The notes: a model not told the origin generated them from the sequence alone. 18,878 nt of DNA from Bdellovibrionales bacterium (GCA_031426555.1 JANPLN010000041.1:1-18878); one strand, 5' to 3'; counted from the first letter of the stretch, positions 1-18,877 are shown. Translations and numbers: made by a program.

Positions 1-2
1 GT

Positions 3-965: not shown

Positions 966-1080
966 GGCCGAGACTGCGCGCTGAGCCAAAATTTTAGACA
1001 TTGTAAGTTGATATCGACATTAAACCGATTTCTGATGTGGGAAGGGGCTTGGGTGGTCTTTTTTTATTTGGGGTGGGTCG

Positions 1081-3185: not shown

Positions 3186-3279
3186 TATAGAATAATCTAA
3201 ATAAGGGACTTTCTTTAAAATTTAATGAAGGAGTCTCAATCTCAAGCGGTTCTCTGTTTCATTCCGAGACTTTAGGTTC

Positions 3280-3606: not shown

Positions 3607-3621
3607 GGTTTTATCATAACA
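3607..3621 (-). promoter_or_regulatory. Putative extended -10 promoter directly upstream of the iscA ATG (possible leaderless mRNA)
   Basis: Minus strand reads TG-t-TATGAT-aaaacc-ATG, with no Shine-Dalgarno before the ATG. Confidence 0.5.
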
Positions 3622-3640
3622 AATTTTGAGTTTTTTTTCA

Positions 3641-4234: not shown

Positions 4235-4248
4235 TTTAGCACCCTAAC

Positions 4249-5820
4249 TTAGCGAGCATGCTCCACAGCACGAGTTTCACGAACCACAGAAATCTTGATC
4301 TGACCTGGGTACTTCATCTCTTTTTCGATCTTGCGAGCGATATCACGGCTCAGCATGACTGACTGCTCGTCGGTCACGCGGCTGCTATCCACGATCACGC
4401 GAATCTCGCGACCCGCTTGAATCGCAAATGTGCGCTCCACGCCTTCGAAACTGTTGGCGATGGATTCAAGATCTTCAAGACGTTGAATGTAGTTTTCGGC
4501 CATGGACTTGCGAGCACCTGGGCGTGCGCTACTTAACGCATCGGCCGCTTGAACGATGTACGCTAGTAATGTGCGCGGCTTTTCGTCCTCGTGATGCGAA
4601 CGAATCGCATGGCACACAGGCTCTGGTTCACCGTAACGTTTTGCAAAGTCGGCACCAATCACCGCATGGGATCCTTCGATACTATGATCCATGGCTTTTC
4701 CAAGATCGTGCAGCAGTCCTGCACGTCGAGCCATTTTTACGTCGGCGCCCATTTCAGCCGCCATCAAGCCGGCGAGCATGCCCACTTCCATGGAGTGGCT
4801 GTAATTGTTTTGCGCATAGGATGTTCGGTATTTTAAGCTGCCAAGAATTTTATGAATCTCGGCGTTGACACCGTTAATTCCTAAATCCATACAGGCTTTT
4901 TCGCCATCCATTTTTATCGATTTAAAAAGCTCTTTTTTGGTTTTATCCACTACTTCTTCGATACGACCGGGATGGATTCTTCCATCCACCATCAAGGTTT
5001 CGAGAGCGCGGCGAGCCACTTCACGGCGAACCGGATCGAAGCCCGAAATCACAACCGCTTCGGGGGTTTCGTCTAAAATCAAATCCACTCCGCACATGGC
5101 TTCGATGGCGCGAATGTTTCGCCCTTCTTTACCGATGATCTTTCCTTTAAGCTCTTGATCGGGAAGCGGCACAACAGTAATGGTTTTTTCGGCAGCGTAT
5201 TCCCCGGCGAAGCGCGAAATCGCCATGCCAATGATGCGTTTGGCTTTTTGCTCAGCCTGCGCTTTAGCGTCTTCTTCGACGGCGATGACCATTTTTGCTG
5301 ATTCCGATTCCACTTCTTCCTTGAGAGCCTGCTTCATTTCTTCTTTGGCTTGATCTTTAGAAATGTTAGAAATGGATTCGAGCTTCTCGGTCAATTGACG
5401 ATTTTTTGTCGCGTTTTCTTCTTTCACAGATTCCAGGCGAGTTTCTTGCGCTTTTAATTTTTCTGATTTTTCGCGCATCTCGAGTTTTTGTTTTTCGAGT
5501 TCTTCCTGTTTGCGTTTGAATTCGCGTTCAAGCTCTTTGCCGCGCTCATCAAGTTTCTGCTCAACCTGGCGCGATTGATCTTTTTGCTTGCGAACTTCGC
5601 CCTCTAAATTTTTACGCATGCGCTGGTCGGCTTCGCGCGCTTTATCAGCTGTTTCTTTTTCGATGCGAGCGGCATCGGAACGAGCTTTGTTGATAATGCG
5701 AGCGGCTTCGTTTTGCGCCGTTTTTTTCTTTTTGTTTTCTACAGCCATTTTATAGCCAGCAAAAACACCTACACCTAAAACGATTCCTACAATTAAATAA
5801 ACAATAGACATTGCGTCCAT
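4249..5820 (-). CDS. rny: Ribonuclease Y
   Basis: N-terminal TM helix, long coiled coil, KH domain (KGKIIGKEGRNIRAIE, DGRIHPGRIEE), HD domain (YRTSYAQN..HS, AGLLHDLGK, ADALSSARPGAR), FAIQAGREIRV. Start set at ATG 5820 behind AGGAG rather than the ORF-track start 5937. Confidence 0.97.
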   Translation of the reverse strand: MDAMSIVYLIVGIVLGVGVFAGYKMAVENKKKKTAQNEAARIINKARSDAARIEKETADKAREADQRMRKNLEGEVRKQKDQSRQVEQKLDERGKELEREFKRKQEELEKQKLEMREKSEKLKAQETRLESVKEENATKNRQLTEKLESISNISKDQAKEEMKQALKEEVESESAKMVIAVEEDAKAQAEQKAKRIIGMAISRFAGEYAAEKTITVVPLPDQELKGKIIGKEGRNIRAIEAMCGVDLILDETPEAVVISGFDPVRREVARRALETLMVDGRIHPGRIEEVVDKTKKELFKSIKMDGEKACMDLGINGVNAEIHKILGSLKYRTSYAQNNYSHSMEVGMLAGLMAAEMGADVKMARRAGLLHDLGKAMDHSIEGSHAVIGADFAKRYGEPEPVCHAIRSHHEDEKPRTLLAYIVQAADALSSARPGARKSMAENYIQRLEDLESIANSFEGVERTFAIQAGREIRVIVDSSRVTDEQSVMLSRDIARKIEKEMKYPGQIKISVVRETRAVEHAR

Positions 5821-5822
5821 AA

Positions 5823-6398
5823 CTACTCCTTTTTTGCAGAACTTCGAATCACCTGTTCTTCGGTGATCACAAAATCCATACCTATATCCCAGGCATCTGT
5901 TGGAAGACTTGTTTCGCTCACTCGAGGTGAAAAACAAACTCCTACCTTAAGCCCCTTAAATTGTTGAAGTGCACGATCGTAAAAAGATTTTCCTCGTCCC
6001 AACCGCTGCCCGTGGCGGTCGAAAGCTTGTCCTGGAATCAACAGTCCGCGAACTTGTTTAAAGTCCACTTGTTTTGAGTTTTCGGCGGATGGCTCTTCAA
6101 TGCCGTACGCACCTCTAAAAAAACTCGCATGTTGTTTTGGAATCCAAAAGCTGAGATCTAATCCGTTCACCTTGGGAAAGGCCCAGGTGATATGCGATGA
6201 TTGCTCTATGGCCGGAACCACAGAGGCTTCATCGGAGAGGGGTTGGTATGCGCACCAAATGCCCTTTTCTTCGTTTAAAAACTCAACCAAATGTTGGTTT
6301 AGTGTTGCTTGCTTTGTAGCCAGCTCCACGCCCAGCCCTTCGCGCCATTTCTTATCGAGCTGACTGAAGTGCTTTCGCAAGGTTTCCTTGCTTTCCAA
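5823..6398 (-). CDS. ygfA: 5-formyltetrahydrofolate cyclo-ligase
   Basis: SKETLRK N-terminus, YGIEEP, LIPGQAFDRHGQRLGRGKSFYDR, WDIGMDFVITE. Start set at TTG 6398 behind GGAG; the ORF track extends to 6458. Confidence 0.92.
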   Translation of the reverse strand: MESKETLRKHFSQLDKKWREGLGVELATKQATLNQHLVEFLNEEKGIWCAYQPLSDEASVVPAIEQSSHITWAFPKVNGLDLSFWIPKQHASFFRGAYGIEEPSAENSKQVDFKQVRGLLIPGQAFDRHGQRLGRGKSFYDRALQQFKGLKVGVCFSPRVSETSLPTDAWDIGMDFVITEEQVIRSSAKKE

Positions 6399-6417
6399 TG
6401 ATGGACTCCAAAAGTTC

Positions 6418-6479
6418 CAGTGACGCTTTAAGGAATTTCCCTTAAGTTCGCAAACCATTTGCGAACTTAGCGTGCACTA
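6418..6479 (-). other. Compact structured element (possible three-way RNA junction) between zapA and ygfA
   Basis: Perfect 12-bp stem taagttcgcaaa/tttgcgaactta (6443-6469), a small second hairpin, and a closing stem (minus strand agtg-c-acgct / agcgt-cact). Confidence 0.4.
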
Positions 6480-6776
6480 TGTATTGGAAATTTGTAGATC
6501 CGAGAGAATGCGATTGGCGAGATTTTCAATGTGATTTAGTTCCTGACTCGTACTCTGCTTAAAAACATAAAGATCTTCCGCAAGTCGAAGGCAGGCCAAT
6601 ACTAAAGCTTTTTGTGGCGATATTTTTGCAACCTCAACGTCAACACGTTTGTTGACCATCTCAAGAATTTCATCAAGCGTATGATGATTGTGCGAGGTTT
6701 TAAGTCTCATTGAAACACCAGCGATATCAATCTCGTGACTTGTCAGTTTTTCCGCTGACGTGCTGGTGCTGACCAT
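6477..6776 (-). CDS. zapA: Cell division protein ZapA
   Basis: EIDIAGVSMRLK ... VNKRV ... ALVLACLRLAEDL, then a coiled coil. About 100 aa, in the canonical position upstream of ygfA-rny. ATG 6776 follows GGAG. Confidence 0.85.
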   Translation of the reverse strand: MVSTSTSAEKLTSHEIDIAGVSMRLKTSHNHHTLDEILEMVNKRVDVEVAKISPQKALVLACLRLAEDLYVFKQSTSQELNHIENLANRILSDLQISNT

Positions 6777-6845
6777 TGCTAACTCCAAATCTTAAATAAA
6801 CAAATTTCCTAATATTATTAGTAACATGTGCTTTGAGTTTTGGTC

Positions 6846-6941
6846 AATAAAACAAAGGGCCACCACTGGCCCTTTGAAATAAACCGCAAGGGCCACCACT
6901 GGCCCTTTGAAATAAACAAAAGGGCCCTGGCAGGCCCTTTG
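6846..6941 (-). terminator. Three tandem ~32-bp hairpin units (triplicated intrinsic terminator or REP-like array) downstream of the HiPIP gene
   Basis: Units are aataaaacAAAGGGCCAccacTGGCCCTTTg, aaataaaccgcAAGGGCCAccacTGGCCCTTtg and aaataaacaAAAGGGCCctggcaGGCCCTTTg. On the minus strand each GC stem is followed by a U-rich tract. Confidence 0.75.
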
Positions 6942-6973
6942 TCGTAGATTTGACTATTTTTTTAGCAGGCTAC

Positions 6974-7318
6974 TTAGGCTTTAGCCCAAGACATACACCA
7001 GCCGTTTTTAGCAACCACTTTGGCTGCGAAAATCGAACATGGTGCATACGGCGCATTTTTGTCCACAGACTTGCACGTTGGATCTAATTCTTTAGCCGCA
7101 CACTGGTTCCACTTCGCGCAGGTGTGACAAATGGCTTTTTTGTCAGCTCTTTCCGGTCCCGCTTTGCTGGCGTCGGCCACATATTTCATTGCCTTAGAAA
7201 GAGGCTCGGCCTCACTAAGAGCATTGGCTGGGGCTCCGGCGGCGAACGAAATTCGCGGGATCACAAAAGCGATGGGTGAAAGGGCAAGGACTTGTAGTAA
7301 CGAACGTCTTTTGATCAT
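6974..7318 (-). CDS. High-potential iron-sulfur protein (HiPIP), Tat-exported
   Basis: Twin-arginine signal KRRSLL...SFA, then LSE.EP..KAMKYV.DA, CHTC, CSIF, V..NGWCMSW. AGGAG RBS. Confidence 0.92.
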   Translation of the reverse strand: MIKRRSLLQVLALSPIAFVIPRISFAAGAPANALSEAEPLSKAMKYVADASKAGPERADKKAICHTCAKWNQCAAKELDPTCKSVDKNAPYAPCSIFAAKVVAKNGWCMSWAKA

Positions 7319-7394
7319 ATTATCTCCTGGTTGATCGTAATTGAAAACATAATGAAATATAAAAGACTGCCAAATGAATGTCTAGCTCGTTTTG

Positions 7395-7443
7395 AAAAAG
7401 TTTACGAATTATTAAACTTTTTGTAAAGGTACCAAGTACCTTT
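7395..7443. repeat. Two adjacent inverted repeats in the cytochrome c-HiPIP intergenic region
   Basis: aaaaagttta-N8-taaacttttt (7395-7422) and aaaggtac-caa-gtaccttt (7425-7443). Confidence 0.6.
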
Positions 7444-7486
7444 TGCGGCGGCGGGGCGTTATTTTAGGGCGTGTTTTTAGACGAAG

Positions 7487-8260
7487 TTAATTATTGAGGG
7501 CGCCGTTGGCGATCCACTGGGAAATGGCGCTAAGTTCGTTTGTAACAAGACGTGGCGCACTCCGTGGCATGTTACCACTTTGAACCTGAGTATAAAAAGC
7601 GCTCCCCGCGGGATTGCCCGCCACCACGGTTCGCAAGGTGTTGGCATAGCTATCATACCGAACACCACCTCGCGCCAGAGCGGCACCGTGGCATGAGATA
7701 CATTTGGGCTCGAGGATGAATTTACGAATCGAGGCATACGTGGGCTGCAGCGTATCCACTGGTACTGGTACCGGAGTTGGTGTTGGAGTTGGAGTTGGCG
7801 CTGGTGTTGGTGTTGGCGCTGGCACTTCGGGCTCCAAAGCTGCCAGCTGGTTGGACCAATCGGTGATGGCAGCTAAAACCTCCATCGCCACAGATTGTGG
7901 AAACCCCTGGTGGCCGGAATTTATTTTAAGATAAAACAGCGACGAAGCGGGCGTTTTTAAATCGACCAGCGAGTTATTGAGCACAGTCGTATGGGAGGCA
8001 TTCACATCGGCCACTGAGTGAAGAGGTGCCTGATTTGTTCCGTGGCAGGCTGCACAGTTGGTTCGCAAAACTGGAAACAAGGTTTGTTCGTAGATTGCAA
8101 GGGAAGCGCTTTCTAAAGGGCCACCGATGATATCCGAACTGTCCTGTTGTGCGCTGATAGAGCCACTGATACCAGTCATGTGGGTGGGACTGCAGTTTAA
8201 AAAGAAAATCATAGTAAGCAGTGGCACAACAATTAGGTAAACTTTGGCTTTTAAAGACAT
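7487..8260 (-). CDS. Di-haem c-type cytochrome lipoprotein (two planctomycete-cytochrome-c-like domains joined by a Pro/Thr linker)
   Basis: Lipobox FFLN|C, two CxxCH motifs (NCAACHG, KCISCHG), VVAGNPAGS...GNMP...ISQWIANGA, and a PAPTPTPAPTPTPTPTPVPVP linker. Confidence 0.85.
   Translation of the reverse strand: MSLKAKVYLIVVPLLTMIFFLNCSPTHMTGISGSISAQQDSSDIIGGPLESASLAIYEQTLFPVLRTNCAACHGTNQAPLHSVADVNASHTTVLNNSLVDLKTPASSLFYLKINSGHQGFPQSVAMEVLAAITDWSNQLAALEPEVPAPTPTPAPTPTPTPTPVPVPVDTLQPTYASIRKFILEPKCISCHGAALARGGVRYDSYANTLRTVVAGNPAGSAFYTQVQSGNMPRSAPRLVTNELSAISQWIANGALNN
7757..7831 (-). repeat. Low-complexity 6-nt-period repeat encoding the Pro/Thr/Val linker of the cytochrome
   Basis: Imperfect tandem ggagtt/ggtgtt/ggtact hexamers on the + strand. 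Confidence 0.7.
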
Positions 8261-8340: not shown

Positions 8341-9702
8341 CTACTGTCCCGCGAACATCTTTTTAAGTTTATAGAGCAGGTTGAACCCCAAGCCTTTTTC
8401 GGCTTTTACGTCGAAAGCTTGGTCAATCAAGGTCTGGGCCTCGGGCTTTTCGTGCACGAGCCCATTCACCACCGCCACTGGTGGTTTGTGGAAGCCCAAG
8501 GTTTTTGTTCCCTCGAGGTGCGCGTCCACTGTGGTCTTGAACTCCCGTGCGAGAAAACACGATCGAAATTTTTCAAAATCAGCGCCCGAGTTGCGAGCGG
8601 CGTTATTGATAGACTCCTCGATCGGTGTCTCGCCTTTTGTAAAGAGCGATGGAAATTGCCAAAAGAAGGCATCGTTTTGCTTGCGAAGACACAAACTCGC
8701 CTCGGCCAGCATGCGCTCGTCGCTATTGCTATCTGGAAAATTAAAAATATATTTCACCACAAAGTACTTGGCGTTGTTTTGCGCAAACGTACTCATCGAC
8801 TGTAAAAGGTCTTGGCAGGATTCACATTGGGTGTTGGTAAACAGAAGAATTTCGATGGGACCATTGCCAATGCTGGGAACCATTTCTGGATTGATCTGCG
8901 TTCCATCCATGCGAAGTTGCGCTTTTTTAAAACCCACCTTAATAGGAGTTTTGATGAGGTTTTTGGCCATGTATGTCGCCATCAGTTGATCTCTTTCGCG
9001 CGCTTTGATGGTGTCAAGGATCTGGATTTTCAGCTCAGGTGTGAGTTCGGCTTCGTAAATATTGTTATTTTTCATAAAAGTTGCCAGATCGGACTCTGTG
9101 GGCTCGGGCACGCCCTTCATAATTGCATTTTGGATATAATCTTCCATGGTGGAATTGGCTTCTTTGGACGCTTGCAAAATTTTACGGCGGCTAATCACAC
9201 CTTCGAGAATTTTAATTTTTTGTTGAAAGCTGTCGGCGAGTAAGCGCGACAACAGCATGTCTTGCCCAGCAAGCTCTTCGCGCGTCCAGGTTTTTTCGCC
9301 TATTGTGGCGCCGTGGCCTTTGACGGCAGTTTCGTCAAACGAAACTGTAATGCTTTTGTTAAGTTTGTCTCCAAGAATTGTTTTGAGTTCTTCCTTCGGA
9401 GCGGCAAAACCGTAGGCTATGTTTATCTCTCCTTTTTCAAGGTCCGCCAGGGCTTTTTCGTAGACAAGAATAAGTACGATTTTGTTCATTCGTTCTTCGA
9501 GCTCTTGCAGTGCCGGCGATGGACCGAAGAGTTGCGAAATTGCGATTTCTTCGCCATCGACTTTCGCGATAATTTCGCCGGTGCTTAGGGCTTGGTCATA
9601 GGTAAAGAGCAGAGGGCTATCTACGGAGATGGCGTTCCGATCTTTCTTTGTACACGAAACATTGAACACAATTAAAAATACCAACGCTGCTAAAAGTTGC
9701 AT
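8341..9702 (-). CDS. DsbA/thioredoxin-like lipoprotein with a SurA-N-like helical N-terminal region
   Basis: Lipobox FNVS|C, IIAKVDGEEI, thioredoxin fold IEILLFTNTQCESC, AEASLCLRKQ...FW, KFRSC, LGFHKPPVAVVNG. GGAGGT RBS before ATG 9702. Confidence 0.75.
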   Translation of the reverse strand: MQLLAALVFLIVFNVSCTKKDRNAISVDSPLLFTYDQALSTGEIIAKVDGEEIAISQLFGPSPALQELEERMNKIVLILVYEKALADLEKGEINIAYGFAAPKEELKTILGDKLNKSITVSFDETAVKGHGATIGEKTWTREELAGQDMLLSRLLADSFQQKIKILEGVISRRKILQASKEANSTMEDYIQNAIMKGVPEPTESDLATFMKNNNIYEAELTPELKIQILDTIKARERDQLMATYMAKNLIKTPIKVGFKKAQLRMDGTQINPEMVPSIGNGPIEILLFTNTQCESCQDLLQSMSTFAQNNAKYFVVKYIFNFPDSNSDERMLAEASLCLRKQNDAFFWQFPSLFTKGETPIEESINNAARNSGADFEKFRSCFLAREFKTTVDAHLEGTKTLGFHKPPVAVVNGLVHEKPEAQTLIDQAFDVKAEKGLGFNLLYKLKKMFAGQ

Positions 9703-9825: not shown

Positions 9826-10731
9826 GTGCTTTCCACTGAGTCTTCACCTCTACTTTTCGAATTAAGTAAGCTCAACTCTGAGCAGTCGACGATGGTTCAA
9901 AGTGAACATGCACTCTGGGGGCTTAAGGAGCTCTCCTTCCTCGGAAATGATCAACGGCAGCAGGCCCTGCAAGTGCAAAAAAATATTCTTTTTCTTGATG
10001 AATTTTCGCAACTCAATCAAAAATTTGTGAAGCAAACGGGATCGCCTCTCACTCCCCTCAAAGGTCTGTCACTATTGCACGAGATTTACAGCAAAAACCT
10101 GAGTCGCTCGATGACTGATATGGATATTTATACAAAGCTGCCGGAGGCTCTATTTACAAAAACGCTCATGGACGCTGGATTTGTACCTGTCCTTGAAAAG
10201 AAATGGCGTTTCAATCGCCACAAATTTTTATTTAAAAAACAGCATGCCCTCACCGAAATTGTTTGCGAAGTTCACACAGATCTTGTGCCTCGTGCACATC
10301 CTTACCCTTGGACAATCGACACACAAGGCAAGCTCGCAAAAGACGAAGAGTTTTTATATCTGTGCTATCATTGGGCCGAGCAGCATACCTGCCTTAAATT
10401 ATTTTGGCTCTTTGATCTATTTTTTTATGTGCAGAAAAATCCCATGGACTCAGAGATCCTTTTGGCCAAAGCAAAACAACTCAAGATCACGTCCTCGCTG
10501 CTCGCCGCCCACTGGGCCCTGCAGAATTGTTTTCGGACTCCATTGTTACAAAATATTCCGCTGCATTATCGCTGGAAATCTTTTTTATTTAAAAAAATTC
10601 TGACACCCGCAACCTTAGCTCACATCCACGACAGACGCGGCATATATTTAATTCTTAAACATCTTTTGAAAGATCAATTCAGCTCGCAGCTTGCTTATAA
10701 TTGGTTATGGCTTCGCTATAAATACTTTTAG
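9826..10731 (+). CDS. Nucleotidyltransferase family protein (NTP_transf_5 type, as found in lasso-peptide and PqqD clusters); start uncertain, frame open from 9697
   Basis: NILFLDEF, LKGLSL..EIY, RSMTDMDIY (R..xDxD metal motif), CEVHTDL, FLYLCYHWAEQH, LFWLFDL. GTG 9826 follows TG-a-TAATAT. Confidence 0.8.
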   Translation: MLSTESSPLLFELSKLNSEQSTMVQSEHALWGLKELSFLGNDQRQQALQVQKNILFLDEFSQLNQKFVKQTGSPLTPLKGLSLLHEIYSKNLSRSMTDMDIYTKLPEALFTKTLMDAGFVPVLEKKWRFNRHKFLFKKQHALTEIVCEVHTDLVPRAHPYPWTIDTQGKLAKDEEFLYLCYHWAEQHTCLKLFWLFDLFFYVQKNPMDSEILLAKAKQLKITSSLLAAHWALQNCFRTPLLQNIPLHYRWKSFLFKKILTPATLAHIHDRRGIYLILKHLLKDQFSSQLAYNWLWLRYKYF

Positions 10732-10764
10732 CCCGGTTGCTACAAATGCGGTTCTCTGGAAAAA

Positions 10765-11199
10765 CTATTTGGCGATGAGGCGTTGAACGAGTCGCAAATA
10801 AAGAAGGCCCAGCTTGCGGGCCACTCGACGACCCAGGATGGAGTTCTTTTTTTGGAAATACATTTGGGTCCAGCAGTAGGGGCTTAGGAGCAATTGGTTT
10901 TTTAGCTGTTGGGTTTTACCGGCTTTTTCTATACCTACCACGCGTCCCCATGAGGCGAATGGTGAAACGGGCTCTCCGTGAAGGCTATTATCTCCCTTGA
11001 GAAAAAGCATTTCCGAAGTTTTTCCAATCACACGATGACAAACGAATTCTTTTTTGTCTTCTCGATAGACGACAACATCTCCGACTTTTGGTTTTTCTAC
11101 CATTGAAAAATCGATCCAGACAAAATCCGCACTTTTAAAAATCGGATCCATACTCGAACCACGGAAGGGAATTTTTTGAATGACTTTGCTTTCGAACAT
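10765..11199 (-). CDS. S24/S26 family (signal peptidase I-like) peptidase, Ser-His type, no N-terminal TM helix
   Basis: GSSMDPIF (Ser), GDVVVY, VCHRVI (His), LKGDNS, GRVVGI. Its start overlaps the radical SAM stop (TGATG). Confidence 0.88.
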   Translation of the reverse strand: MFESKVIQKIPFRGSSMDPIFKSADFVWIDFSMVEKPKVGDVVVYREDKKEFVCHRVIGKTSEMLFLKGDNSLHGEPVSPFASWGRVVGIEKAGKTQQLKNQLLLSPYCWTQMYFQKKNSILGRRVARKLGLLYLRLVQRLIAK

Positions 11200-12230
11200 C
11201 AGACTGACAGCTCTTTTTTAAGCTTGGCCACGTCTTTCGAGAAACAGGTGAGAGTTTTCGCATCGCCAGTTTCGTTTTTGGCCATACCCGGACAGTGCTC
11301 GCAGAACGAGACCATGTCGTCAGAGACGTCTTTGATTTGCTTCCAGCGCATTTGTCTCCACGGCTGCACTTTTTCGCCATGCCAGAGCTCGTGAAAAGGT
11401 TTTTCGATTAAATTGCCTAAGGAATCGCGAATTTCGATGCATGGAAACAACTCGCCGTAAGCATTGACGGCGCATTTTCCTTTACCGGCATTACAGGTGT
11501 AGTCTTCGACTGTCTCGCCAGAGGCTTTGGGTTTGCCCATGGGCCAGCGACGCATTTTTTCTTGATAATAGTCTCGCAACTGATCGATGCTCGCGCGATA
11601 TTTGGTGGGCTCAAGATTCCCGTTGAGCTTTGGAGTGATCATGGGGTCCACCTTTAGCATCAGATCGTTTTTGAGTGCCCAATCTTCCAGGTCAAAAATT
11701 CCAGCGATGTTTTGTTTGGTGAGCAAACAGTTGATCGCAACTTGAATGCCTTCCTGACGACAAAGCTCGATGGCGCGGAGAGTTTTAGCGTGGGAGCCGC
11801 GCACTTTTGTCATACTGTCGTGGATGAGAGGATCGAGGCTGTAAAAGCTAATGGTTGCGTTTTGCAGACCGGAATCCTTAAGACGCTGAACCACTTCGGG
11901 AGACTGAATTTTTAGACCGTTAGTGATCATCGACGTGTGAAAGTTTAAATCTCGCGAACGCGCGAGAATATCCCAAAAGTGGATATTTAGCATCGCTTCG
12001 CCACCCATCAAGATAATGTAAAACGTGCCTGCTGCGCGCAGCTCTTGCAAAACGTGATACCACTGCTGCAAACTTAAAACGCGCTGGGGATTGTCGCTAA
12101 AATCTTCGATATAACAATGGGTGCAGCGCTCGTTGCAACGATTGGTTAATTCCAGCGAAGCTTGCAGTGGGATAAACTTGGCGCTACTCGTGTTTCGAAA
12201 CTTATCAAGAATGGACATTTCGCTGCTCAT
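11199..12230 (-). CDS. Radical SAM protein with a SPASM/Twitch domain (putative peptide maturase)
   Basis: ELTNRCNERCTHCY, MGGEAML, ITNG, HDSMTKVRGSH, CNAGKGKCAVNAYGELFPC, LGNL...F.ELW, FCEHCPG. ATGA overlap with the upstream kinase-like gene. Confidence 0.92.
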   Translation of the reverse strand: MSSEMSILDKFRNTSSAKFIPLQASLELTNRCNERCTHCYIEDFSDNPQRVLSLQQWYHVLQELRAAGTFYIILMGGEAMLNIHFWDILARSRDLNFHTSMITNGLKIQSPEVVQRLKDSGLQNATISFYSLDPLIHDSMTKVRGSHAKTLRAIELCRQEGIQVAINCLLTKQNIAGIFDLEDWALKNDLMLKVDPMITPKLNGNLEPTKYRASIDQLRDYYQEKMRRWPMGKPKASGETVEDYTCNAGKGKCAVNAYGELFPCIEIRDSLGNLIEKPFHELWHGEKVQPWRQMRWKQIKDVSDDMVSFCEHCPGMAKNETGDAKTLTCFSKDVAKLKKELSV

Positions 12231-13165
12231 GAGTTTTGATCCTGGTTGACGTGGGCAAAGATTTCGTCCCAGATTTTTTCTTTTTTCGGAAAAGACAATT
12301 CATAAAGGGGTATTTTTTGTAACAACAGGCCCACTAAGAGAAAGATTTTTTGCACATTCTCAGACGGCAACTGACTCCAAAAAACATTGGCCACTGCCGA
12401 ACTCAACAATTTGATTTGAGTGGACTTTGGGACGTGCTGCAGACTGATAGTTTCGCCTTTCTTTAACCACAAGAAGGCCTTCACTGGATACCAATTTGAG
12501 TACTCGGTGGGGTTTAACAATGCCTGTCCGAGAGCACCCGCCTGTGCCCAACACTGATCGTTTTCAAACTTAATCACGTTCATGTCATCGCCAAGGATTT
12601 TTTTGCGCGAACGGAAAGAAGCGATGGTGCTCTTGCCTGCACCGGAAGGTCCTAACGAAAAATAGGCCATGCCTTTTTCGTCAAGCACGCAGGAGCTGTG
12701 TAAGACCAACTTTCCCTGCTCGACTAACAAAACAGGTAGCAACCAACGAAGAAAATTAAAGAAACCATCGTCTAAGTGGTAGGGACAAATCAAAAAACAT
12801 TTTTTGTTTTCTAAAACGGCGGCAAAATCTCGCTGCACGGCGATTTGTTGATCGCCCACGTTGGTCACATAACACTCTGGCGAGGCTTCATCGGACCAAT
12901 TGTCGTTTGTCCAACCCAGCTGAGTGTTGTCGATCCAGAAAATATCGATAACTTCTTGCCCGTGAGCTTGCTGAAACCATGACAATGGATAGTGATCGTA
13001 AAGTTCTCCCAGCAACTCTTCGGAGCTGAGATGAAACCGGAGGGGAATACCGTGAATGGATAGATCCACTGCATGTTTATTGAATTGCGCTATTGATGGC
13101 TTAGTTAAATGAGCTCCCAATAGCGTCGCTTGTTTGTTTTTAAGGTGCTGAGATAGGGTTTCCAT
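12227..13165 (-). CDS. HPr-kinase-like P-loop protein (putative peptide kinase); frame open from 13207
   Basis: LVLHSSCV (His), GPSGAGKST (Walker A) and ILGDD form the His-Lys-Asp-Asp signature of HprK-like peptide kinases. C-terminal IPLYELSF. Confidence 0.8.
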   Translation of the reverse strand: METLSQHLKNKQATLLGAHLTKPSIAQFNKHAVDLSIHGIPLRFHLSSEELLGELYDHYPLSWFQQAHGQEVIDIFWIDNTQLGWTNDNWSDEASPECYVTNVGDQQIAVQRDFAAVLENKKCFLICPYHLDDGFFNFLRWLLPVLLVEQGKLVLHSSCVLDEKGMAYFSLGPSGAGKSTIASFRSRKKILGDDMNVIKFENDQCWAQAGALGQALLNPTEYSNWYPVKAFLWLKKGETISLQHVPKSTQIKLLSSAVANVFWSQLPSENVQKIFLLVGLLLQKIPLYELSFPKKEKIWDEIFAHVNQDQNS

Positions 13166-13239
13166 ATCTGAAAGTGTATTCGTGTTTAAACCACTGGTAC
13201 AGATCACTGTCCCGAAGGTCTAGGTCGAAGATGGAAGTT

Positions 13240-13268
13240 TTGCGCCGGCTCCTGTCTTCATGTAGCTT
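13240..13268 (+). promoter_or_regulatory. Putative sigma70 promoter for the precursor peptide
   Basis: TTGCGC (13240-45), 17-nt spacer, TAGCTT (13263-68), 6 nt, then ATG 13275. No Shine-Dalgarno. Confidence 0.55.
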
Positions 13269-13274
13269 TGTTGT

Positions 13275-13451
13275 ATGGACGCTCAACAATCTCCTCCGCA
13301 TCGCAAGACGAAGAAAAAATATCAAAAGCCGCGCATTCAATCCGAAGCATTGATGACTTTTGGAGCGCTTTGCAATGGCACTCTGTCTGGCGGACGAAAA
13401 CAAACGGCCAGCGCACCGGACAACTGCTCCGCAGGTAAGCTCCTCTCGTAA
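13275..13451 (+). CDS. Putative RiPP precursor peptide, 58 aa (not in the ORF track)
   Basis: Manual translation: MDAQQSPPHRKTKKKYQKPRIQSEALMTFGALCNGTLSGGRKQTASAPDNCSAGKLLS*. It has a KKxYxKPxI leader motif, a small-residue core with 2 Cys, its own promoter and terminator, and is adjacent to the kinase/rSAM/peptidase operon. Confidence 0.85.
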   Translation: MDAQQSPPHRKTKKKYQKPRIQSEALMTFGALCNGTLSGGRKQTASAPDNCSAGKLLS

Positions 13452-13480
13452 TAGAAAAATTCATAACGCACATCTCAACC

Positions 13481-13521
13481 AAAAGGTACGCCGTACCTTA
13501 AACGGTACGGCGTACCTTTTT
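13481..13521. terminator. Bidirectional intrinsic terminator between the precursor gene (+) and the giant C25 gene (-)
   Basis: Perfect 17-bp inverted repeat aaaaggtacgccgtacc-ttaaac-ggtacggcgtacctttt, with T tracts on both strands. Confidence 0.85.
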
Positions 13522-13537
13522 GCGTTTTTGCGAGCGT

Positions 13538-16500
13538 CTATCCTAGCTTTTTTCTTAATTTACGAATCATCACCCACGCAACTAGGGATTCTAAGCATAG
13601 GGCGAAGACGAGGTCCCAGGGGGTTTGGTGATTTTGCGATCCATAGGCGGCGTTGAGGGAACAGCCGCTGGAGCCGCCGCCGCTGCTCGGTGCGGCTGGG
13701 GTTGCGGGGGCTTGGGCGATGGCGGGTTTAACCATGGGGTCGCCGATGATGGTCCACGACATCATCACTTCTTTGAACGGTGATTGCTGGTGAGCTTGAA
13801 GTTTCGAAATTTTTACGGCATCACCCACCGAGCTGGTGGCTGAGTTTGAGCTTGAAAGCAAGCGCTCGTAGAAGGCTTTTTGATAAACACTTTGCACACT
13901 TGGCGGCGTCATTGAAGTGGAGCCCCAAAAGGCGATAGCTCCGCCGTCTTTTTTCATGACAAGCTTTTCGGCAAAACTCTCAAGCGCTGGATCATAGTAA
14001 AGAGCGTTCAAGCAGTTCATGGCCGTGACAACGGGAAAGTGGGTGTTTTGTAGAACATCGATATCGTTGTTGCTAAAAACATTCGCATCGGCCCACATAT
14101 TTTCGGCGCCATGGCCCATGTAATGGATCAACGATGAATTATCAAAGCTTGTCATAATTTGCGTCTTAAAATCGGCGTCGCTGAATTGCGAACGTTTAAT
14201 TTTGTCGAGAGTCATATTGGCATTCCAACTTTGAACACCCAGAGCGAGCTCATCGGTGAGTTGGTCAAAGTCCTCGCCTTGATTGAGCGGCTTGTCGGTT
14301 AACACCGTTAAACGCGTATTTTGTGGTTTGGACTGACCCGCTTCGTACTGTAAAACTTTTTGCACGTACGCACTCAGCTGAACTGACGTTTGCGCAGGAA
14401 TTCGACCAACCACGGCGAAGGGTGCCGTATCCTCTGCTTGAGTCACGTACCAGTTATCAGAGCCGTAGTTAAACGCCACACCTTGAATGAGTTTTACTGG
14501 AAAGCGATTTTTAATCTCGCTGTTTTGATAAGCCTTTGGATCGTAGGTTCCATCGCCGAGTAAAATATAATACTTTGGCTTTACAGCCCATGACGTGTGC
14601 GCGTAGATAAAAAAGTCGCGAATCGAATCGATGTTTACCAAGCCCTGACCAAACTCATTATAGATGCTCTCCAGAGTAACTAATTTTACTTTGTACCCCT
14701 GCTGTTCACGAAGTGCTGCCAGTGGCTGTACAGAATCAAGAAGCTCTTCCGTTCCGACATAAACCACATCGGCTTCGCTAGCGGGATCTAAAAGATCACT
14801 TCCGTAATTCAATTGTAGAGAAGTGGCTGAGAGCAACTCAGTCTGGGTCGAAGCAAAAATGCGACGTCCCTGCTGAGGATCGGACTGTGTGTTAAACTGC
14901 ATAGCAAAGCCCATGGATGTTGGTGCTGTGGCCGAATTCGTCCAAAGAGCTGGCTGGCCAAATAAACTGAGGTCGTAAACTTTGACTTGCGCCGACGAAA
15001 ATCCATCCACCACAAGGTCGGTGTTGACCTGATGATTCATAATTAAAATTTGGTCATCGACCGCTTGCCAATTTTGATAGTAAGAAATATCAACGGAATT
15101 GATATACATCATATCGTATTCGCCAGCGATGAGATTTTCGCCAGTGGGTTCCAGCGTGATGCGGTTTAAGCCCGGGGCAAAGTAGTTAGATGGCACGCTC
15201 AGGTTTACGATTTGCACATTCGATCCACTAAATGTTTGCTTGGCTACGGGCACATCATTCACGCGCAGCTGCAACGTGTTGATGTAATTGTTCGCCCCGT
15301 TTCTGCGACTCTTCACAAGGGCTTGCACGAGTACTGGCCGTTGCGTATCGAGGTTGGCTAAAACCACGTCTGTGGTCAGACCCACTCGCGCACCACCCGA
15401 AATTCCATAGTACATTCCCCAAACAAACAGATCCATATCTTGATCGTAGGGTTCATTAAAAACTGCCACGTTGTTTTGTTCGAGGTGAATTCGGTTCATA
15501 AACGAGGCCACCTGCGAAGCTTGTCCCGAAAAATTCGAAACATCCACGGCAGACATTCGCAAACCTGGAGTCACAGCAAGTACATCATTCACTAAAAGCA
15601 TGTAGCTCAATCGACTCTCTAAGGTTTCGGTGTGGGGTGCAAAAAAGCGAATTTTATCGCCCGATGAGAAGTAACCAGAAGTGCTTTCCACTTCGATAGC
15701 GTGCTCTTGGTTGAGAAAATACATTTTAAACTGCCCAACATCAGCATGATCAAATGGATTTATCACTCCTGCAGCGTACATTTGATCGTACGTTAATTCG
15801 TAAACGCCATCTGCTGCCACACCAATTTTAAGAGAACCCGGCAACCCCCAAGCTTCGTTGACAGCCACAGGTTGAGTGGGAACCCACGATGACGAGCTAT
15901 CTAAAAACACATCCAGCACAATTTCGTCGTACTTTTTTAAATTTTGCGCGTTTGCTTGGTAGGATAGAGGCGAAATCACAACCGGTAAATAGTATTGACC
16001 CTGATCATTAAGAATTGTGCCTAAAGAAATAGGCTGTGCAGGTATGTACGTGTTGTTGGCGTACGCACTGGTATTGAGTGTCCACTGCTCGATAAAATGA
16101 TTGCCACTTACGACCCAGCGGGGCGCTGGAGCTACAAGTACAGAACTTGCAACGGAAGACACTTCGGAAACAACATTCATCTGCGCCGATGTGGCTTTGT
16201 CTATCTTCAGCATGAATGTTCGTTGCAACAACTCGGGATCCCCGGCTTGCACGCTGCGCGAGTACAGTGGAACGCTGAGCTGCTTATAGCTTGGATATGT
16301 GTCATGGGCGCTGAGCTGATAGTTTGGAATGGTGATTTTAATGCGGTAGGCATTTTGCGTTTTGCTTAGCAAAGTAATATTGGGTTCAAGCACAACCAAT
16401 CCCGGAGTGGCGTCCGCAGGAGCTTGTCCACCCGAGCTTTGGCTGCCCGAGGGATTACTTGAAACAATCGTACTCGCCAGTGGTGGCGGCGCCGCGCTGA

Positions 16501-18877
16501 GCACCGTGAGCGGCGTTGCGCTCACCGGCCCGTGCAGCGTTCGCTCTTCGGTGGTGGAAATATCTTCGAGCTTGTAATAGTAAGCCACAGAGTTATCCAC
16601 ATCTTCGTCGATAAAAGCATAGGTGCCGTGCAAATTTGCACTAAATAGATCGTTGCGTATCAGCTCTGAGTTGATTTGCACATAACCCGAAGATGGAGAC
16701 AAACTTCTAAAAACATTAAAGCCTTTATGCAACCACTCAATGCCCGTTGTCCATTCTAGGACAACTTGCCCGTTGAAAGGTGTGGCTTTGAATTCCGTGA
16801 GCGACACTGGAGAATTTGCTGTATCAATAACGATATTGCAATTGGTTTCGGAAATCTTGGCGTTGGTGTTAGTTGTAGTGTACGGCCAAAAATCACCGAA
16901 CCATTGGTCGAAGGTCACAGTTCGACTGCTACAGCCTGAGGAAAATCCTAAAAAGTACGATGTGGCTTGTGAAGGGACGGAGTTGCCGCTGGCCCAGTAC
17001 CAACCAAAGTTAGAAATGGTCGACGGCAACGATCCGGTCGTGTTCAATTGAATCGCCCGCATACCCGCGGTGCTCGGCAAGCTTCGCAACTGACCACCGT
17101 TAATTTGTGTGACGTTGGTTGTACCGCCAATATTCAAACCGCTGGTTCCTAACCATTCAAAAACAAAACCCACAAGATTGAGAGTTCCTGAGGTGGCGGT
17201 GAAATTCCAAGTGCCGGTGGATTGCCGTGTGAAGGTGCCCTTATTCGATAACGATTGTGGATAAACGTCGTTGGTGCCGGTTGTCGCTATTGTACCGCCA
17301 CTCAGGGTGATTGTTTGCCCGCTACCAACTTGAACCGTTCCTCCGGAGGAAACCGAAAGCGTTCCTGCACTCACCGTCATTCCCGCTGGGACCACCAGGG
17401 TTTTGCTGTTAGGAACCGTAAAGGTAAAATTACTACCTGCAGACATATTAAGAAGGCTGCTCACCGTCAGCGAGGCGCTGCCGATTTCTACCGAACCGCC
17501 TGCTGTTTTGTTGAAGGCCAGGGAGGTTAACGCCGACGAGCTGCTCACCGTTTGCGACGTAGACACCACACCATCATCGCGAATTGTTAAAGGAAAAGCA
17601 CCTTGAGTGAAGGTTCCGGTATTTTCGAAGGATCCATAAACTTGCAAGGCTCCGCCTGTCATGGTGAGAATACCCGTACCGATGGTGATGGATTTGCAAG
17701 ATTGCGTACCTGTAGAGATGATCGGATCGTTGGCGGCATCGTTGATCACGCAATTGAGCGCACTTGTCGGCAAGCCGCCGTTCCAGTTTCCTGCCAAGGC
17801 CCAAGCCGTACTTGTCGCTCCTGTCCAGTACGTGGTGGTTCCAACGATGGATGTGGTGCCCAAGTTAACGGCAGGAGCAAAGGACCCGTTAAAGGCATAG
17901 CTTTGTGAGTTCGTAACATGGGATGAAGAATTTATTTCGGCTCCCACGGTGGCCCCATTTGTCGCGGTGGAACTCAGTGAGTAAGTCACATAGAAGCAGC
18001 GTTTGGGAGGAGTGGTTACATTGGCTTGAACTGTAGCACCGGTAATAGAACTAAAATCTGCTCGAGCAGGACTTCCACTGAAGGTTTGTGTCCCCACAAG
18101 TGTTCCACCACTACCTGTGCATGCCGAATCATAGAAAAGACTGGCACTGTTCACGTCGGAGGCCGAACCTGTTCCGGTTAAGGTGATGCGCATGTAAGTA
18201 ATATCGGTGTTTGAAAAAGCACCGGCGCTGGTTTGTTTAAAACCAAATCGACCCATGTTAACCACCGCACCTTGATTGCTGGATGCCGGAGCTACTGCTT
18301 CTTGGGTTAGATCGAGAGTGTTCACCGCAGCTCCCCAGCTTACAATATAATTCACCGCAGTTGAAAAAGAGAGACCCGTCATGTCTCCAGAATAATTGGA
18401 AACTGTCAAAGTTCCTGCGCCCGTATTTGTAGAAATACTGCGTGCCCCAGTGACTGCTGAACCGCCAGTGGAAAAAGTCATAGAATCTAAGGTGTTGCCC
18501 GGCACTTGACGAAGAAGTCGTAAGAAGAAAGCATTGTTAACCCCAGGATAACTGTAGCTACCGTTCTGAAGTTGGTTAGTGGCGTTGATCGTGGCTCCGG
18601 AATTGATGGTCAATCCTGTGAGACCTAAATTTTGTAAAGAGTAATATCTGGCGCTGATGGTTCCACTCACGTTAATCACGTAACTGCTCGCCGTGTTTGG
18701 TGAACGAATGTTCGCTGCACTGGAGGACGTGCCCACAAACTCAAGCGTTCCACCCAAGGCCACTGTCATCGTTGTTCCGTTGGCCATCACGAGTGTGGCC
18801 CCAGGTTCAATATCTAAGACGGCAGGGCTGTTCACGTTGATGCCACCGTTTACTGTGAGAGTCACTCCAGAGGCAAT
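13538..18877 (-). CDS. Giant secreted/surface protein with a C-terminal peptidase C25 (gingipain/PorU-like) domain and a Gly-rich/Cys C-terminal sorting signal; 5'-truncated by the window edge
   Basis: Open to the window end (IASG-VTLTV...). Thr/Gly/Ser-rich beta-solenoid-like region; PVSLTEFKATP..VLEWTT..E....GFNVFRS module; C25-propeptide-like segment; LKIGVAADGVYELTY; LESIYNEFG, YYILLGDGTYDPK, SDNWY, VGRIP, YMGHG (His), MNCLN (Cys), IIGDP; ends SSGGGSSGCSL...hydrophobic helix...IRKLRKKLG. Confidence 0.88.
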   Translation of the reverse strand: MASGVTLTVNGGINVNSPAVLDIEPGATLVMANGTTMTVALGGTLEFVGTSSSAANIRSPNTASSYVINVSGTISARYYSLQNLGLTGLTINSGATINATNQLQNGSYSYPGVNNAFFLRLLRQVPGNTLDSMTFSTGGSAVTGARSISTNTGAGTLTVSNYSGDMTGLSFSTAVNYIVSWGAAVNTLDLTQEAVAPASSNQGAVVNMGRFGFKQTSAGAFSNTDITYMRITLTGTGSASDVNSASLFYDSACTGSGGTLVGTQTFSGSPARADFSSITGATVQANVTTPPKRCFYVTYSLSSTATNGATVGAEINSSSHVTNSQSYAFNGSFAPAVNLGTTSIVGTTTYWTGATSTAWALAGNWNGGLPTSALNCVINDAANDPIISTGTQSCKSITIGTGILTMTGGALQVYGSFENTGTFTQGAFPLTIRDDGVVSTSQTVSSSSALTSLAFNKTAGGSVEIGSASLTVSSLLNMSAGSNFTFTVPNSKTLVVPAGMTVSAGTLSVSSGGTVQVGSGQTITLSGGTIATTGTNDVYPQSLSNKGTFTRQSTGTWNFTATSGTLNLVGFVFEWLGTSGLNIGGTTNVTQINGGQLRSLPSTAGMRAIQLNTTGSLPSTISNFGWYWASGNSVPSQATSYFLGFSSGCSSRTVTFDQWFGDFWPYTTTNTNAKISETNCNIVIDTANSPVSLTEFKATPFNGQVVLEWTTGIEWLHKGFNVFRSLSPSSGYVQINSELIRNDLFSANLHGTYAFIDEDVDNSVAYYYKLEDISTTEERTLHGPVSATPLTVLSAAPPPLASTIVSSNPSGSQSSGGQAPADATPGLVVLEPNITLLSKTQNAYRIKITIPNYQLSAHDTYPSYKQLSVPLYSRSVQAGDPELLQRTFMLKIDKATSAQMNVVSEVSSVASSVLVAPAPRWVVSGNHFIEQWTLNTSAYANNTYIPAQPISLGTILNDQGQYYLPVVISPLSYQANAQNLKKYDEIVLDVFLDSSSSWVPTQPVAVNEAWGLPGSLKIGVAADGVYELTYDQMYAAGVINPFDHADVGQFKMYFLNQEHAIEVESTSGYFSSGDKIRFFAPHTETLESRLSYMLLVNDVLAVTPGLRMSAVDVSNFSGQASQVASFMNRIHLEQNNVAVFNEPYDQDMDLFVWGMYYGISGGARVGLTTDVVLANLDTQRPVLVQALVKSRRNGANNYINTLQLRVNDVPVAKQTFSGSNVQIVNLSVPSNYFAPGLNRITLEPTGENLIAGEYDMMYINSVDISYYQNWQAVDDQILIMNHQVNTDLVVDGFSSAQVKVYDLSLFGQPALWTNSATAPTSMGFAMQFNTQSDPQQGRRIFASTQTELLSATSLQLNYGSDLLDPASEADVVYVGTEELLDSVQPLAALREQQGYKVKLVTLESIYNEFGQGLVNIDSIRDFFIYAHTSWAVKPKYYILLGDGTYDPKAYQNSEIKNRFPVKLIQGVAFNYGSDNWYVTQAEDTAPFAVVGRIPAQTSVQLSAYVQKVLQYEAGQSKPQNTRLTVLTDKPLNQGEDFDQLTDELALGVQSWNANMTLDKIKRSQFSDADFKTQIMTSFDNSSLIHYMGHGAENMWADANVFSNNDIDVLQNTHFPVVTAMNCLNALYYDPALESFAEKLVMKKDGGAIAFWGSTSMTPPSVQSVYQKAFYERLLSSSNSATSSVGDAVKISKLQAHQQSPFKEVMMSWTIIGDPMVKPAIAQAPATPAAPSSGGGSSGCSLNAAYGSQNHQTPWDLVFALCLESLVAWVMIRKLRKKLG

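What the first reader, a model, noticed from the sequence alone, without database searches (positions are those of the whole stretch)
9826..18877. Candidate undescribed RiPP-like system: precursor + HPr-like kinase + rSAM/SPASM + S26 peptidase + nucleotidyltransferase, next to a giant C25 surface protein
Seen: six contiguous genes. The kinase, rSAM and peptidase are translationally coupled (ATGA at 12227-30, TGATG at 11197-201). The precursor is divergent from them across ~110 bp, and the nucleotidyltransferase converges on the peptidase. Established: HprK-like kinases and NTP_transf_5 proteins are lasso-peptide tailoring enzymes, rSAM/SPASM enzymes are peptide maturases, and the bioinformatically defined SynChlorMet and GeoRSP cassettes share some of these parts. 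Inference: this is a hybrid pathway with no lasso cyclase or transglutaminase-like B2 protease in view. The rSAM would crosslink the core, S26 would remove the leader, and the kinase and NTase would modify the C-terminus. I know of no characterised product for this gene set, and no exporter or immunity gene is visible, which hints at a structural or surface-display role rather than an antibiotic.
Basis: partly seen in the sequence, partly recalled or inferred. Interest (0 to 1): 0.92.

Follow-up and report, generated by a model that had tools for sequence, protein, structure and literature searches.

The report
Radical-SAM phosphopeptide pathway with sortase-like partner
These six genes are a real, widely conserved but unstudied pathway that probably cross-links, trims and phosphorylates a small two-cysteine peptide, and the giant sortase-like surface protease next to it is gained and lost together with the pathway even where the two genes lie apart, which suggests a role on the cell surface.

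Summary
All six genes and both overlaps are present. The host is a Bdellovibrionales bacterium. The cassette (precursor, HprK/PEPCK-fold kinase, PqqD, rSAM/SPASM, Ser-His S26 peptidase, NTP_transf_5) is conserved across Bdellovibrionota and recurs in several other phyla. Of 97 precursors, 96 have two Cys and 94 end in Ser/Thr.

The missing RRE lies on another contig, in a polysaccharide locus where two relatives keep the whole cassette. The giant C25 protein (~2,460 aa) resembles the sortase PorU more than gingipain and keeps its His/Cys dyad. It occurs in 31 of 38 cassette genomes and 2 of 263 others, including six genomes where it is unlinked. Many homologous loci carry an ABC pair, so the 'no exporter' argument fails.

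The closest characterised system is LPP (2026), which lacks the rSAM and phosphorylates core Ser3. This is not LPP, lasso, SynChlorMet or GeoRSP by the tests run. Best reading: a cross-linked phospho(glyco)peptide of the cell envelope with the protease as partner. No chemistry was shown. This scan noted the same cassette type before on other DNA. Verdict: new variant of a known kind.

The parts
9826..10731 (+). NTP_transf_5 nucleotidyltransferase (PsmN/LppN-like); invariant DxD, plus R95, E149, H151. Start GTG 9826 (TTG 9820 possible).
   Evidence: PF14907 74 bits; alignment A5; single copy in genome
10765..11199 (-). Archaeal/SipW-type S26 peptidase with no predicted N-terminal anchor (by inspection); invariant S16, H55, D70. 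The Ser-His spacing of 39 equals that of LppS S29/H68. Probable leader peptidase.
   Evidence: PMC13381572 section 11
11199..12230 (-). Radical SAM/SPASM enzyme: CxxxCxxC at 32-39, five conserved auxiliary Cys (246, 253, 264, 310, 313). Lacks the first CxxC of the distal group seen in distant homologues.
   Evidence: model pLDDT 92.8; top fold matches include SkfB, SuiB, PqqE, anSME and sactipeptide thioether maturases at 22% identity or less
12227..13165 (-). HprK/PEPCK-fold kinase; invariant His, Walker-A Lys and Asp-Asp (HSS, GxSGxGKT, LGDDM), the motif type of lasso-peptide kinases
   Evidence: PMC9266682 passage
13275..13451 (+). Precursor, 58 aa. Leader with Y16-x-x-P19-x-I and E24; predicted cut after G30 or A31; core with C33-N-G, GGRK (K42), C51, L56 and terminal S58.
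13481..13520 (.). 17-bp hairpin between the convergent precursor and C25 genes. Terminator-like, but a genome-wide repeat (about 20 places), so not specific to the system.
13538..18877 (-). 3' 1,779 codons of a ~2,460-aa surface protein: Thr/Ser/Gly-rich passenger, propeptide-like domain, PorU-like beta domains, C25 catalytic domain (His codon at about 14113, Cys at about 14014), then a Gly/Ser-Cys, transmembrane, basic tail. The 5' part is on contig C8:62659-64704.

Best explanation
The cassette makes a small modified peptide of the cell envelope, and the giant PorU-like protease is its extracellular partner. Steps: (1) The PqqD/RRE, supplied in trans from contig C17, binds the YxxPxI leader. 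(2) The rSAM/SPASM enzyme modifies the core, most likely forming thioether cross-links from the two Cys. (3) The kinase (poly)phosphorylates the terminal Ser. (4) The NTase puts sugar on that phosphate, or activates it for neighbouring glycosyltransferases. (5) The S26 peptidase cuts the leader after G30 or A31, leaving a 28- or 27-residue core (unmodified 2719.3 or 2648.3 Da). (6) The product is exported (ABC pair in many relatives; route unknown here). (7) The membrane-tailed C25 protein cleaves it or, as PorU does with its glycan acceptor, joins it to a surface protein, possibly to its own passenger region. SHOWN here: gene content, conservation, intact catalytic motifs, RRE orthology, co-inheritance with C25, enrichment next to glycosyltransferases. 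INFERRED from homologues: steps 1, 3, 4, 5 (about 0.8, 0.75, 0.55, 0.8). INFERRED weakly: the rSAM chemistry (thioether about 0.55) and step 7 (direct action on the peptide about 0.5).
For: Precursor conservation: 96 of 97 have two Cys, 94 end in S/T, 90 have Leu at -2, 86 have CNG, 81 have Lys nine residues after Cys1. The precursor was found in the same 13 of 61 genomes as the rSAM, plus one weak hit beside a divergent cassette. Kinase motif. NTase DxD as in PsmN. LppS precedent, RRE-dependent; with Y as -16 the window's F29 falls on LppA F-3. The C17 PqqD is the only PF05402 match over cut-off, groups with the in-cassette PqqD of G009 (98/96), and sits in the same flippase/glycosyltransferase locus that holds the whole cassette in G009 and G010. 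Giant C25 orthologue: 12 of 13 rSAM-positive vs 0 of 48 other genomes in the order sample; 31 of 38 vs 2 of 263 in the phylum sample. The match holds within families f5, f18, f22 and f24. In six genomes the C25 gene is on another contig with unrelated neighbours. G003 has lost cassette and C25 at the same chromosomal site. The C25 profile aligns with PorU 41-783 (E 1.6e-54) but with gingipains only over the catalytic domain; PorU is the top fold match; His and Cys are present in 40 of 40. A GT4 gene lies within 7 kb of the rSAM in 17 of 42 loci, against 2.9% of this genome.
Against: Nothing biochemical was tested. Seven of 38 cassette genomes have no giant C25 detected (G004, G036, G185, G233, G251, G314, G335), and two genomes have it without a cassette (G210, fragmented; G321, 100% complete). 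Kinase and C25 trees agree only loosely (Mantel r 0.29, vs 0.79 for kinase-NTase, 22 genomes). Kin are not independent, so the p-values overstate. 25 of 42 loci have no GT4 nearby, including this one. G003 keeps the PqqD without a cassette, so its presence does not prove use. No dedicated exporter was found in this genome (best permease hit E 1e-12, an unrelated ABC pair). The C25 scores 188 bits against the PorU cut-off of 420. No other protein in the genome has its tail, so it is not a many-cargo sortase on that signal. In LPP the phosphate goes on core Ser3 and LppN gave no product.
Confidence: 0.55

Rival explanations
1. The peptide pathway works as above, but the C25 protein never touches the peptide. 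Both are parts of one surface or biofilm programme (adhesin plus glycan plus peptide), and the C25 domain only processes its own passenger or prey/host proteins.
For: Seven of 38 cassettes lack it and two genomes have it alone. Loose tree agreement. Different C25 sizes and tails pair with the cassette in different phyla. No cargo family shares its tail.
Against: Co-inheritance persists when unlinked. Joint loss in G003. C25 genes lie beside the cassette in 17 of 36 distant loci that have kinase or PqqD, against 2 of 17 without. The small gingipain-like C25 on C51 does not track the cassette: a similar protein is in cassette-free G001.
Confidence: 0.25
2. The product is a diffusible antimicrobial or signal exported by the ABC pair; the protease is an activator, degrader or immunity factor.
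For: ABC pair in 10 of 26 close loci and 12 of 20 further loci. Patchy distribution (38 of 301 genomes). Fold matches to sactipeptide maturases.
Against: The core stays strongly conserved across a phylum even where the rSAM falls into two divergent types, unlike fast-diverging bacteriocins (general knowledge). Mostly one precursor per locus. Enrichment beside polysaccharide genes, as also reported for LPP.
Confidence: 0.12
3. In this genome the cassette is a decaying relic: it was separated from its RRE and exporter and no longer makes a product.
For: PqqD is displaced in all four cassette-bearing members of the genus. Sister genome G003 has deleted the cassette. G004 has the NTase about 12 kb away and no giant C25 detected.
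Against: All six frames are open with catalytic residues intact. The split arrangement is shared by four species with rSAM identity of 74-88% and PqqD identity of 84-85%, which implies long retention.
Confidence: 0.08

Closest known systems
Linear polyphosphorylated peptides (LPP), LppA/K/B/S/D/N of Bacillota (Popov et al. 2026, PMC13381572; abstract, introduction, results sections 6, 7 and 11, discussion and a term search of supplements read)
   Same: Discrete RRE, archaeal-type Ser-His-Asp leader peptidase, HprK-like kinase, NTP transferase, YxxP leader, no cyclase, frequent location in polysaccharide loci, final product unknown.
   Different: Here there is a radical SAM/SPASM enzyme ('radical' has 0 hits in the LPP main text), two invariant Cys, a conserved C-terminus ending L-x-S/T rather than a variable one, no Ser at core position 3, an ABC-2-like pair rather than an MsbA-like pump, a PorU-like partner, and hosts outside Bacillota.
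Phosphorylated/phosphoglycosylated lasso peptides: paeninodin PadeK, pseudomycoidin PsmK/PsmN (passages of PMC9266682 and PMC6993621 read)
   Same: Kinase with His-Lys-Asp-Asp acting on a C-terminal Ser; NTP transferase with DxD needed for hexosylation of the phosphate; discrete RRE and YxxP leader.
   Different: No macrolactam cyclase or B2 protease; S26 and rSAM instead.
Sactipeptide/ranthipeptide maturases (SkfB and the thioether maturase in PDB 5wgg/5why; class features recalled)
   Same: rSAM/SPASM fold, RRE, Cys-containing core.
   Different: 22% identity or less; stand-alone RRE; reduced auxiliary Cys set; extra kinase, NTase and S26; linkage unknown.
SynChlorMet and GeoRSP cassettes (NCBIfam models only; the defining paper was not held)
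   Same: Kinase-like, PqqD and rSAM/SPASM parts; ScmD is the best NCBIfam hit of the PqqD and ScmC is weakly hit by 6 of 13 kinases.
   Different: All scores are far below the cut-offs; one rSAM rather than ScmE plus ScmF or a split SPASM.
[quoted passage not shown]
   Same: Same domain run over ~700 residues and the same His/Cys dyad. PorU cleaves a signal and amide-links the new C-terminus to an aminoacyl (seryl) sugar.
   Different: Below the NCBIfam cut-off; ~1,500-residue passenger in front; Cys-TM-basic tail instead of a T9SS CTD; tied to a peptide pathway.

Membership tests
LPP | Discrete RRE | tested here: met
   In trans on C17; in cis in 22 of 26 close loci
LPP | Archaeal-type SpI peptidase with Ser-His-Asp | tested here: met
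   S16, H55, D70 invariant in 10 of 10; Ser-His spacing as in LppS; the Asp spacing differs
LPP | HprK-like kinase and NTP transferase | tested here: met
   Motifs and Pfam; no direct comparison with LppK/LppN sequences was made
LPP | Precursor motif YxxPxVLxHQxIxFETxxS with phosphorylated core Ser3 and variable C-terminus | tested here: not met
   Only YxxP and (in 42 of 97) the Phe match; no HQ, ET or Ser3; C-terminus conserved
LPP | Core gene set without a cross-linking enzyme, with an MsbA-like pump | tested here: not met
   rSAM present at every cassette examined whose contig reached it; ABC-2-like pair or none
Lasso peptide | Macrolactam cyclase plus B2 protease | tested here: not met
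   No PF13471 in the genome; the only PF00733 match over cut-off is unlinked, in a glycan locus
SynChlorMet | ScmC, ScmD, ScmE/ScmF models over cut-off | tested here: not met
   ScmE 63.8 vs 400; ScmD 34.1 vs 100; ScmC not hit by the window kinase at E 0.1
GeoRSP | GeoRSP rSAM and PqqD models over cut-off | tested here: not met
   76.6 vs 400 and 29.1 vs 100
Sactipeptide/ranthipeptide | rSAM/SPASM enzyme with RRE and Cys-containing precursor | tested here: met
Sactipeptide/ranthipeptide | Cys-to-carbon thioether cross-links | not testable with these tools
   Needs MS/MS or NMR
PorU sortase | NF033707 over cut-off and T9SS C-terminal domain | tested here: not met
   188 vs 420 bits; the tail is Cys-TM-basic
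PorU sortase | PorU domain architecture with intact His/Cys dyad | tested here: met
PorU sortase | Transpeptidase activity | not testable with these tools
   Needs an assay
Gingipain (Arg/Lys-specific C25) | Acidic S1-pocket residue | tested here: inconclusive
   The region aligns poorly with RgpB; F522 is near-invariant, position 523 is variable
Cys-containing C-terminal sorting signals (MYXO-, JDVT-, Synerg-CTERM) | Gly/Ser-rich motif with invariant Cys, TM helix, basic end; NCBIfam model hit | tested here: inconclusive
   Design present in 24 of 24 tails (passages of 10.1101/2023.06.07.544157), but no model hit for 11 tails scanned and a longer spacer before the helix

The most novel reading that the evidence does not exclude
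The peptide is a ribosomally made covalent linker. S26 frees its N-terminal amine (or the invariant Lys serves), the rSAM rigidifies it, and kinase plus NTase join its terminal phosphoserine to a surface glycan made by the neighbouring glycosyltransferases. The PorU-like enzyme then transpeptidates a surface protein, probably its own giant passenger, onto it. The peptide would play the part that the seryl-sugar plays for PorU: a sortase system whose anchor is a RiPP, used in Bdellovibrionota, Anaerolineae, Acidobacteriota and others.
Probability: 0.2. Interest if true: 0.92.

Novelty: new variant of a known kind. Interest (0 to 1): 0.7.

Why it matters
The roles of LPPs and phosphorylated lasso peptides are stated to be unknown (PMC13381572, discussion), and the NTP transferase has no defined reaction. 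This family adds a radical SAM step and a tightly co-inherited PorU-like surface enzyme. That gives a concrete, testable link between phosphopeptide RiPPs and envelope assembly. If the protease acts on the peptide, it would be a RiPP used as a structural anchor and a PorU-type sortase working outside type IX secretion. Even on the cautious reading it defines a compact, clonable pathway with a single short substrate, present in about one in eight sampled Bdellovibrionota genomes. It also shows an RRE working from a distant locus, which neighbourhood-based mining would miss.

Tried and rejected
Complex prediction of the C25 domain with the precursor core was not available; there is no result either way. 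No RNA holder was listed for the locus, so expression is untested. The protein atlas gave only leads under 0.9 for the precursor (unnamed Acidobacteriota clusters) and the passenger (0.77). The precursor has no PDB match. Sigma-70 promoter scan: 5 sites vs 5.2 in shuffles, uninformative. The terminator-like hairpin is a genome-wide repeat. A many-cargo sortase on the C25's own tail was rejected for this genome: only 1 protein has it. S1 specificity of the C25 could not be read. The first phylum search with the single rSAM missed a second rSAM type: 16 C25-positive genomes looked cassette-free, but 14 of them had the cassette on re-search. I therefore repeated the count with the kinase profile over all 301 genomes. 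In that count I dropped G003 (truncated relic) and G312 (short partial hit) and added G036 (divergent cassette below the threshold); other divergent cassettes may be missed. Lasso, SynChlorMet and GeoRSP membership were rejected (see tests). Literature searches that found no description of this gene set; term searches in PMC10288494, PMC7470986 and PMC12710340 found nothing relevant. Most subscription journals are not in the library. The LPP supplement lists Radical_SAM and Peptidase_C25 once each as column heads of its domain matrix; I did not read the counts, so a few such loci may be in that data set.
Full report
OBSERVATION. The window is the complete contig C41 of a 3.14-Mb, 100%-complete genome. 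Its nearest rSAM relatives are in records titled Bdellovibrionales. Family scans give NTP_transf_5, S24/S26, Radical_SAM plus SPASM, weak PEPCK/HprK-related hits for the kinase, nothing for the precursor, and Peptidase_C25 plus propeptide for the giant protein. Each of the five small genes is single-copy in the genome. The C25 gene runs off the contig; its first 682 codons are at the end of contig C8, overlapping by four bases in frame, for about 2,460 aa, as in relatives.

CONSERVATION. The rSAM has a close match in 13 of 61 genomes of the order, G000 included. The precursor profile finds the same 13 plus one weak hit. A scan of one genome per species returned 79 loci (the best 80 of 170). 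The 26 closest are nearly all Bdellovibrionota-type: 22 carry the precursor, 25 the kinase, 22 a PqqD, 25 the S26, 22 the NTase, 10 an ABC permease and 5 a C25 within the flank held. Of 53 distant loci (Anaerolineae, Blastocatellia, Elusimicrobia, Rokubacteria, Omnitrophota and others), 36 have kinase or PqqD, and of these 29 have S26, 15 the NTase and 17 a C25. Their precursors have the same plan: a YxKP leader, two or three Cys and a final Ser. A library search with the precursor profile gave 58 hits, 56 of them short proteins of this type. Across 97 distinct precursors, 96 have exactly two Cys, 94 end in Ser or Thr, 90 have Leu two from the end, 86 have CNG and 81 have Lys nine residues after the first Cys.

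THE MISSING RRE. In most relatives a PqqD lies between kinase and rSAM; in the four cassette-bearing genomes of this genus it does not. G000 has one PF05402 match over cut-off, on contig C17, among glycosyltransferases. The same locus in G003 also holds a flippase, a TylF methyltransferase and a nucleotidyl transferase. G009 and G010 carry the entire cassette at that locus. The C17 protein is 53% identical to G009's in-cassette PqqD and groups with it at 98/96 support. So the enzymes and precursor most likely moved next to the C25 gene and left the RRE behind (inference). Against over-reading this: G003 keeps the PqqD although its cassette is reduced to a truncated kinase and an NTase remnant.

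ENZYMES. The kinase keeps invariant His, Walker-A Lys and Asp-Asp, the motif type reported for lasso-peptide kinases that phosphorylate a C-terminal Ser (PMC9266682, passages). The NTase keeps a DxD like the one PsmN needs to hexosylate that phosphate (PMC6993621, passages). The S26 has Ser16, His55 and Asp70. LppS, with S29/H68/D93, removes a leader in an RRE-dependent way (PMC13381572, section 11). With the leader Tyr numbered -16 as in LppA, the cut falls after A31 and F29 matches LppA F-3. The small-residue rule of signal peptidases (recalled) fits a cut after G30 slightly better: 89 of 97 are small there, about 74 of 97 one residue later. I leave it at even odds. The rSAM models well (pLDDT 92.8) and matches peptide-modifying SPASM enzymes at 22% identity or less. 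That does not fix the chemistry. Thioether formation is the likeliest use of two invariant Cys; a disulfide plus another radical reaction is open. A second, divergent rSAM type serves near-identical precursors in family f22.

THE C25 PROTEIN. A profile of 40 cassette-associated or orthologous C25 regions aligns with PorU over residues 41-783 (E 1.6e-54) but with gingipains only over the catalytic domain (E 1e-34). PorU is also the top fold match. His and Cys are present in 40 of 40. All 24 Bdellovibrionota tails examined have a Gly/Ser-Cys motif, a hydrophobic helix and basic residues, the design of Cys-type sorting signals (10.1101/2023.06.07.544157, passages), without an NCBIfam hit. In the order sample the giant orthologue is in 12 of 13 rSAM-positive genomes and 0 of 48 others; three weak hits there are short proteins. 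In six genomes it is on another contig among unrelated genes. In an even sample of 301 genomes of the phylum, a kinase search plus one divergent case gives 38 cassettes. The giant C25 is in 31 of them and in 2 of the other 263, and the pattern holds within four families (p-values overstate because kin are not independent). Against: seven cassettes lack it, two genomes have it alone, and kinase and C25 trees agree only loosely (r 0.29 vs 0.79 for kinase-NTase). The exception G004 has its contig ending 148 bp after the precursor at what looks like a transposase start (label recalled).

GLYCAN CONTEXT AND EXPORT. A family-4 glycosyltransferase lies within 7 kb of the rSAM in 17 of 42 loci (9 of 19 with full flanks), against 2.9% of this genome. 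This locus is among the 25 without. ABC pairs accompany many cassettes, but none dedicated was found here.

MECHANISM. The best reading is a cross-linked, C-terminally phospho(glyco)sylated 27-28-residue peptide destined for the envelope, with the PorU-like protein as its extracellular partner (0.55). Rivals: co-inheritance without contact (0.25), diffusible agent (0.12), relic (0.08). The boldest version makes the peptide the acceptor for transpeptidation, like the seryl-sugar to which T9SS cargo is amide-linked (PMC7468200, passages); I give it 0.2.

COMPARISON AND NOVELTY. It works like LPP plus a radical SAM step but is not a member: the precursor motif, phospho-site, transporter type and gene set differ. 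Lasso, SynChlorMet and GeoRSP tests were not met. Seven literature searches found no description of this gene set; the library lacks most subscription journals and the paper defining SynChlorMet. Earlier notes of this scan describe the same cassette type in other genomes and gave me the LPP lead. They are not counted as support. None matched this sequence or locus. What I add from tests here: the Bdellovibrionota clade, the displaced RRE, and genome-level co-inheritance of the PorU-like protein without linkage. Verdict: new variant of a known kind, interest 0.70.

Noticed in passing
L111:1471-5650 (G003:C6) and L115:931-7459 (G005:C46): A separate lasso-peptide-like cluster (PqqD, NTase, small B2-sized ORF, HprK-related kinase, asparagine-synthase-like cyclase, precursor-like ORF starts) in two genomes of the same genus. 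G002 and G004 also have a second PqqD; G000 does not. It echoes the LPP/lasso co-residence.
   Followed up: partly
L145:8211-8831 (G003:C59): Deletion relic of the cassette: a 161-aa kinase stump abutting an NTase remnant at the same thioredoxin-cytochrome-HiPIP site as the window.
   Followed up: yes
window 13481-13520: A 40-bp palindromic element present at about 20 places in the genome, including after the small C25 gene on C51.
   Followed up: partly
G000:C51:1423-2952 (L005): A second, 509-aa gingipain-like C25 protein, unlinked; similar proteins in G001 and G004 do not track the cassette.
   Followed up: partly
L141:10960-12435; L130:5269-6621; L126 and L133; L137:8341-8818: Cassette variants: rSAM-S26 fusion (G311), rSAM ORF that also hits the PqqD profile (G067), two PqqD genes (G181, G170), two precursors with poly-Gly spacers (G335).
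   Followed up: no
L125-L133, L136, L137, L123: A second rSAM type (about 27-29% identical to the window's where measured) serves near-identical precursors, suggesting enzyme replacement with a fixed substrate.
   Followed up: partly
L062, L067, L071, L077, L091, L093, L099, L100, L105, L109: Anaerolineae loci carry two C25 genes (~1,020 and ~720 aa). The longer usually ends in an LPxIxR-like tail, and their precursor leaders resemble the LPP leader with Cys at position +3.
   Followed up: partly
window 8341-9702 -: A thioredoxin_4 (DsbA-like) protein starts about 120 bp from the NTase, divergently. It could matter for a two-Cys peptide, but it flanks the site only in G000, G002 and G003 among loci checked.
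   Followed up: partly
window 1-8260: Unrelated neighbours: S1/P1 nuclease (3-965), trypsin-like protease (1081-1884), an unassigned 434-aa protein (1881-3185), HiPIP (6974-7318), c-type cytochrome protein (7487-8260). ORFs at 3280-6788 look like Fe-S assembly, ferredoxin, RNase Y, 5-formyl-THF cyclo-ligase and ZapA genes (labels recalled, not tested).
   Followed up: no
G000:C69:10848-11120 (L146): The genome's single Rce1-like (CPBP) intramembrane protease match, a candidate processor of the C25 protein's Cys-type tail.
   Followed up: no
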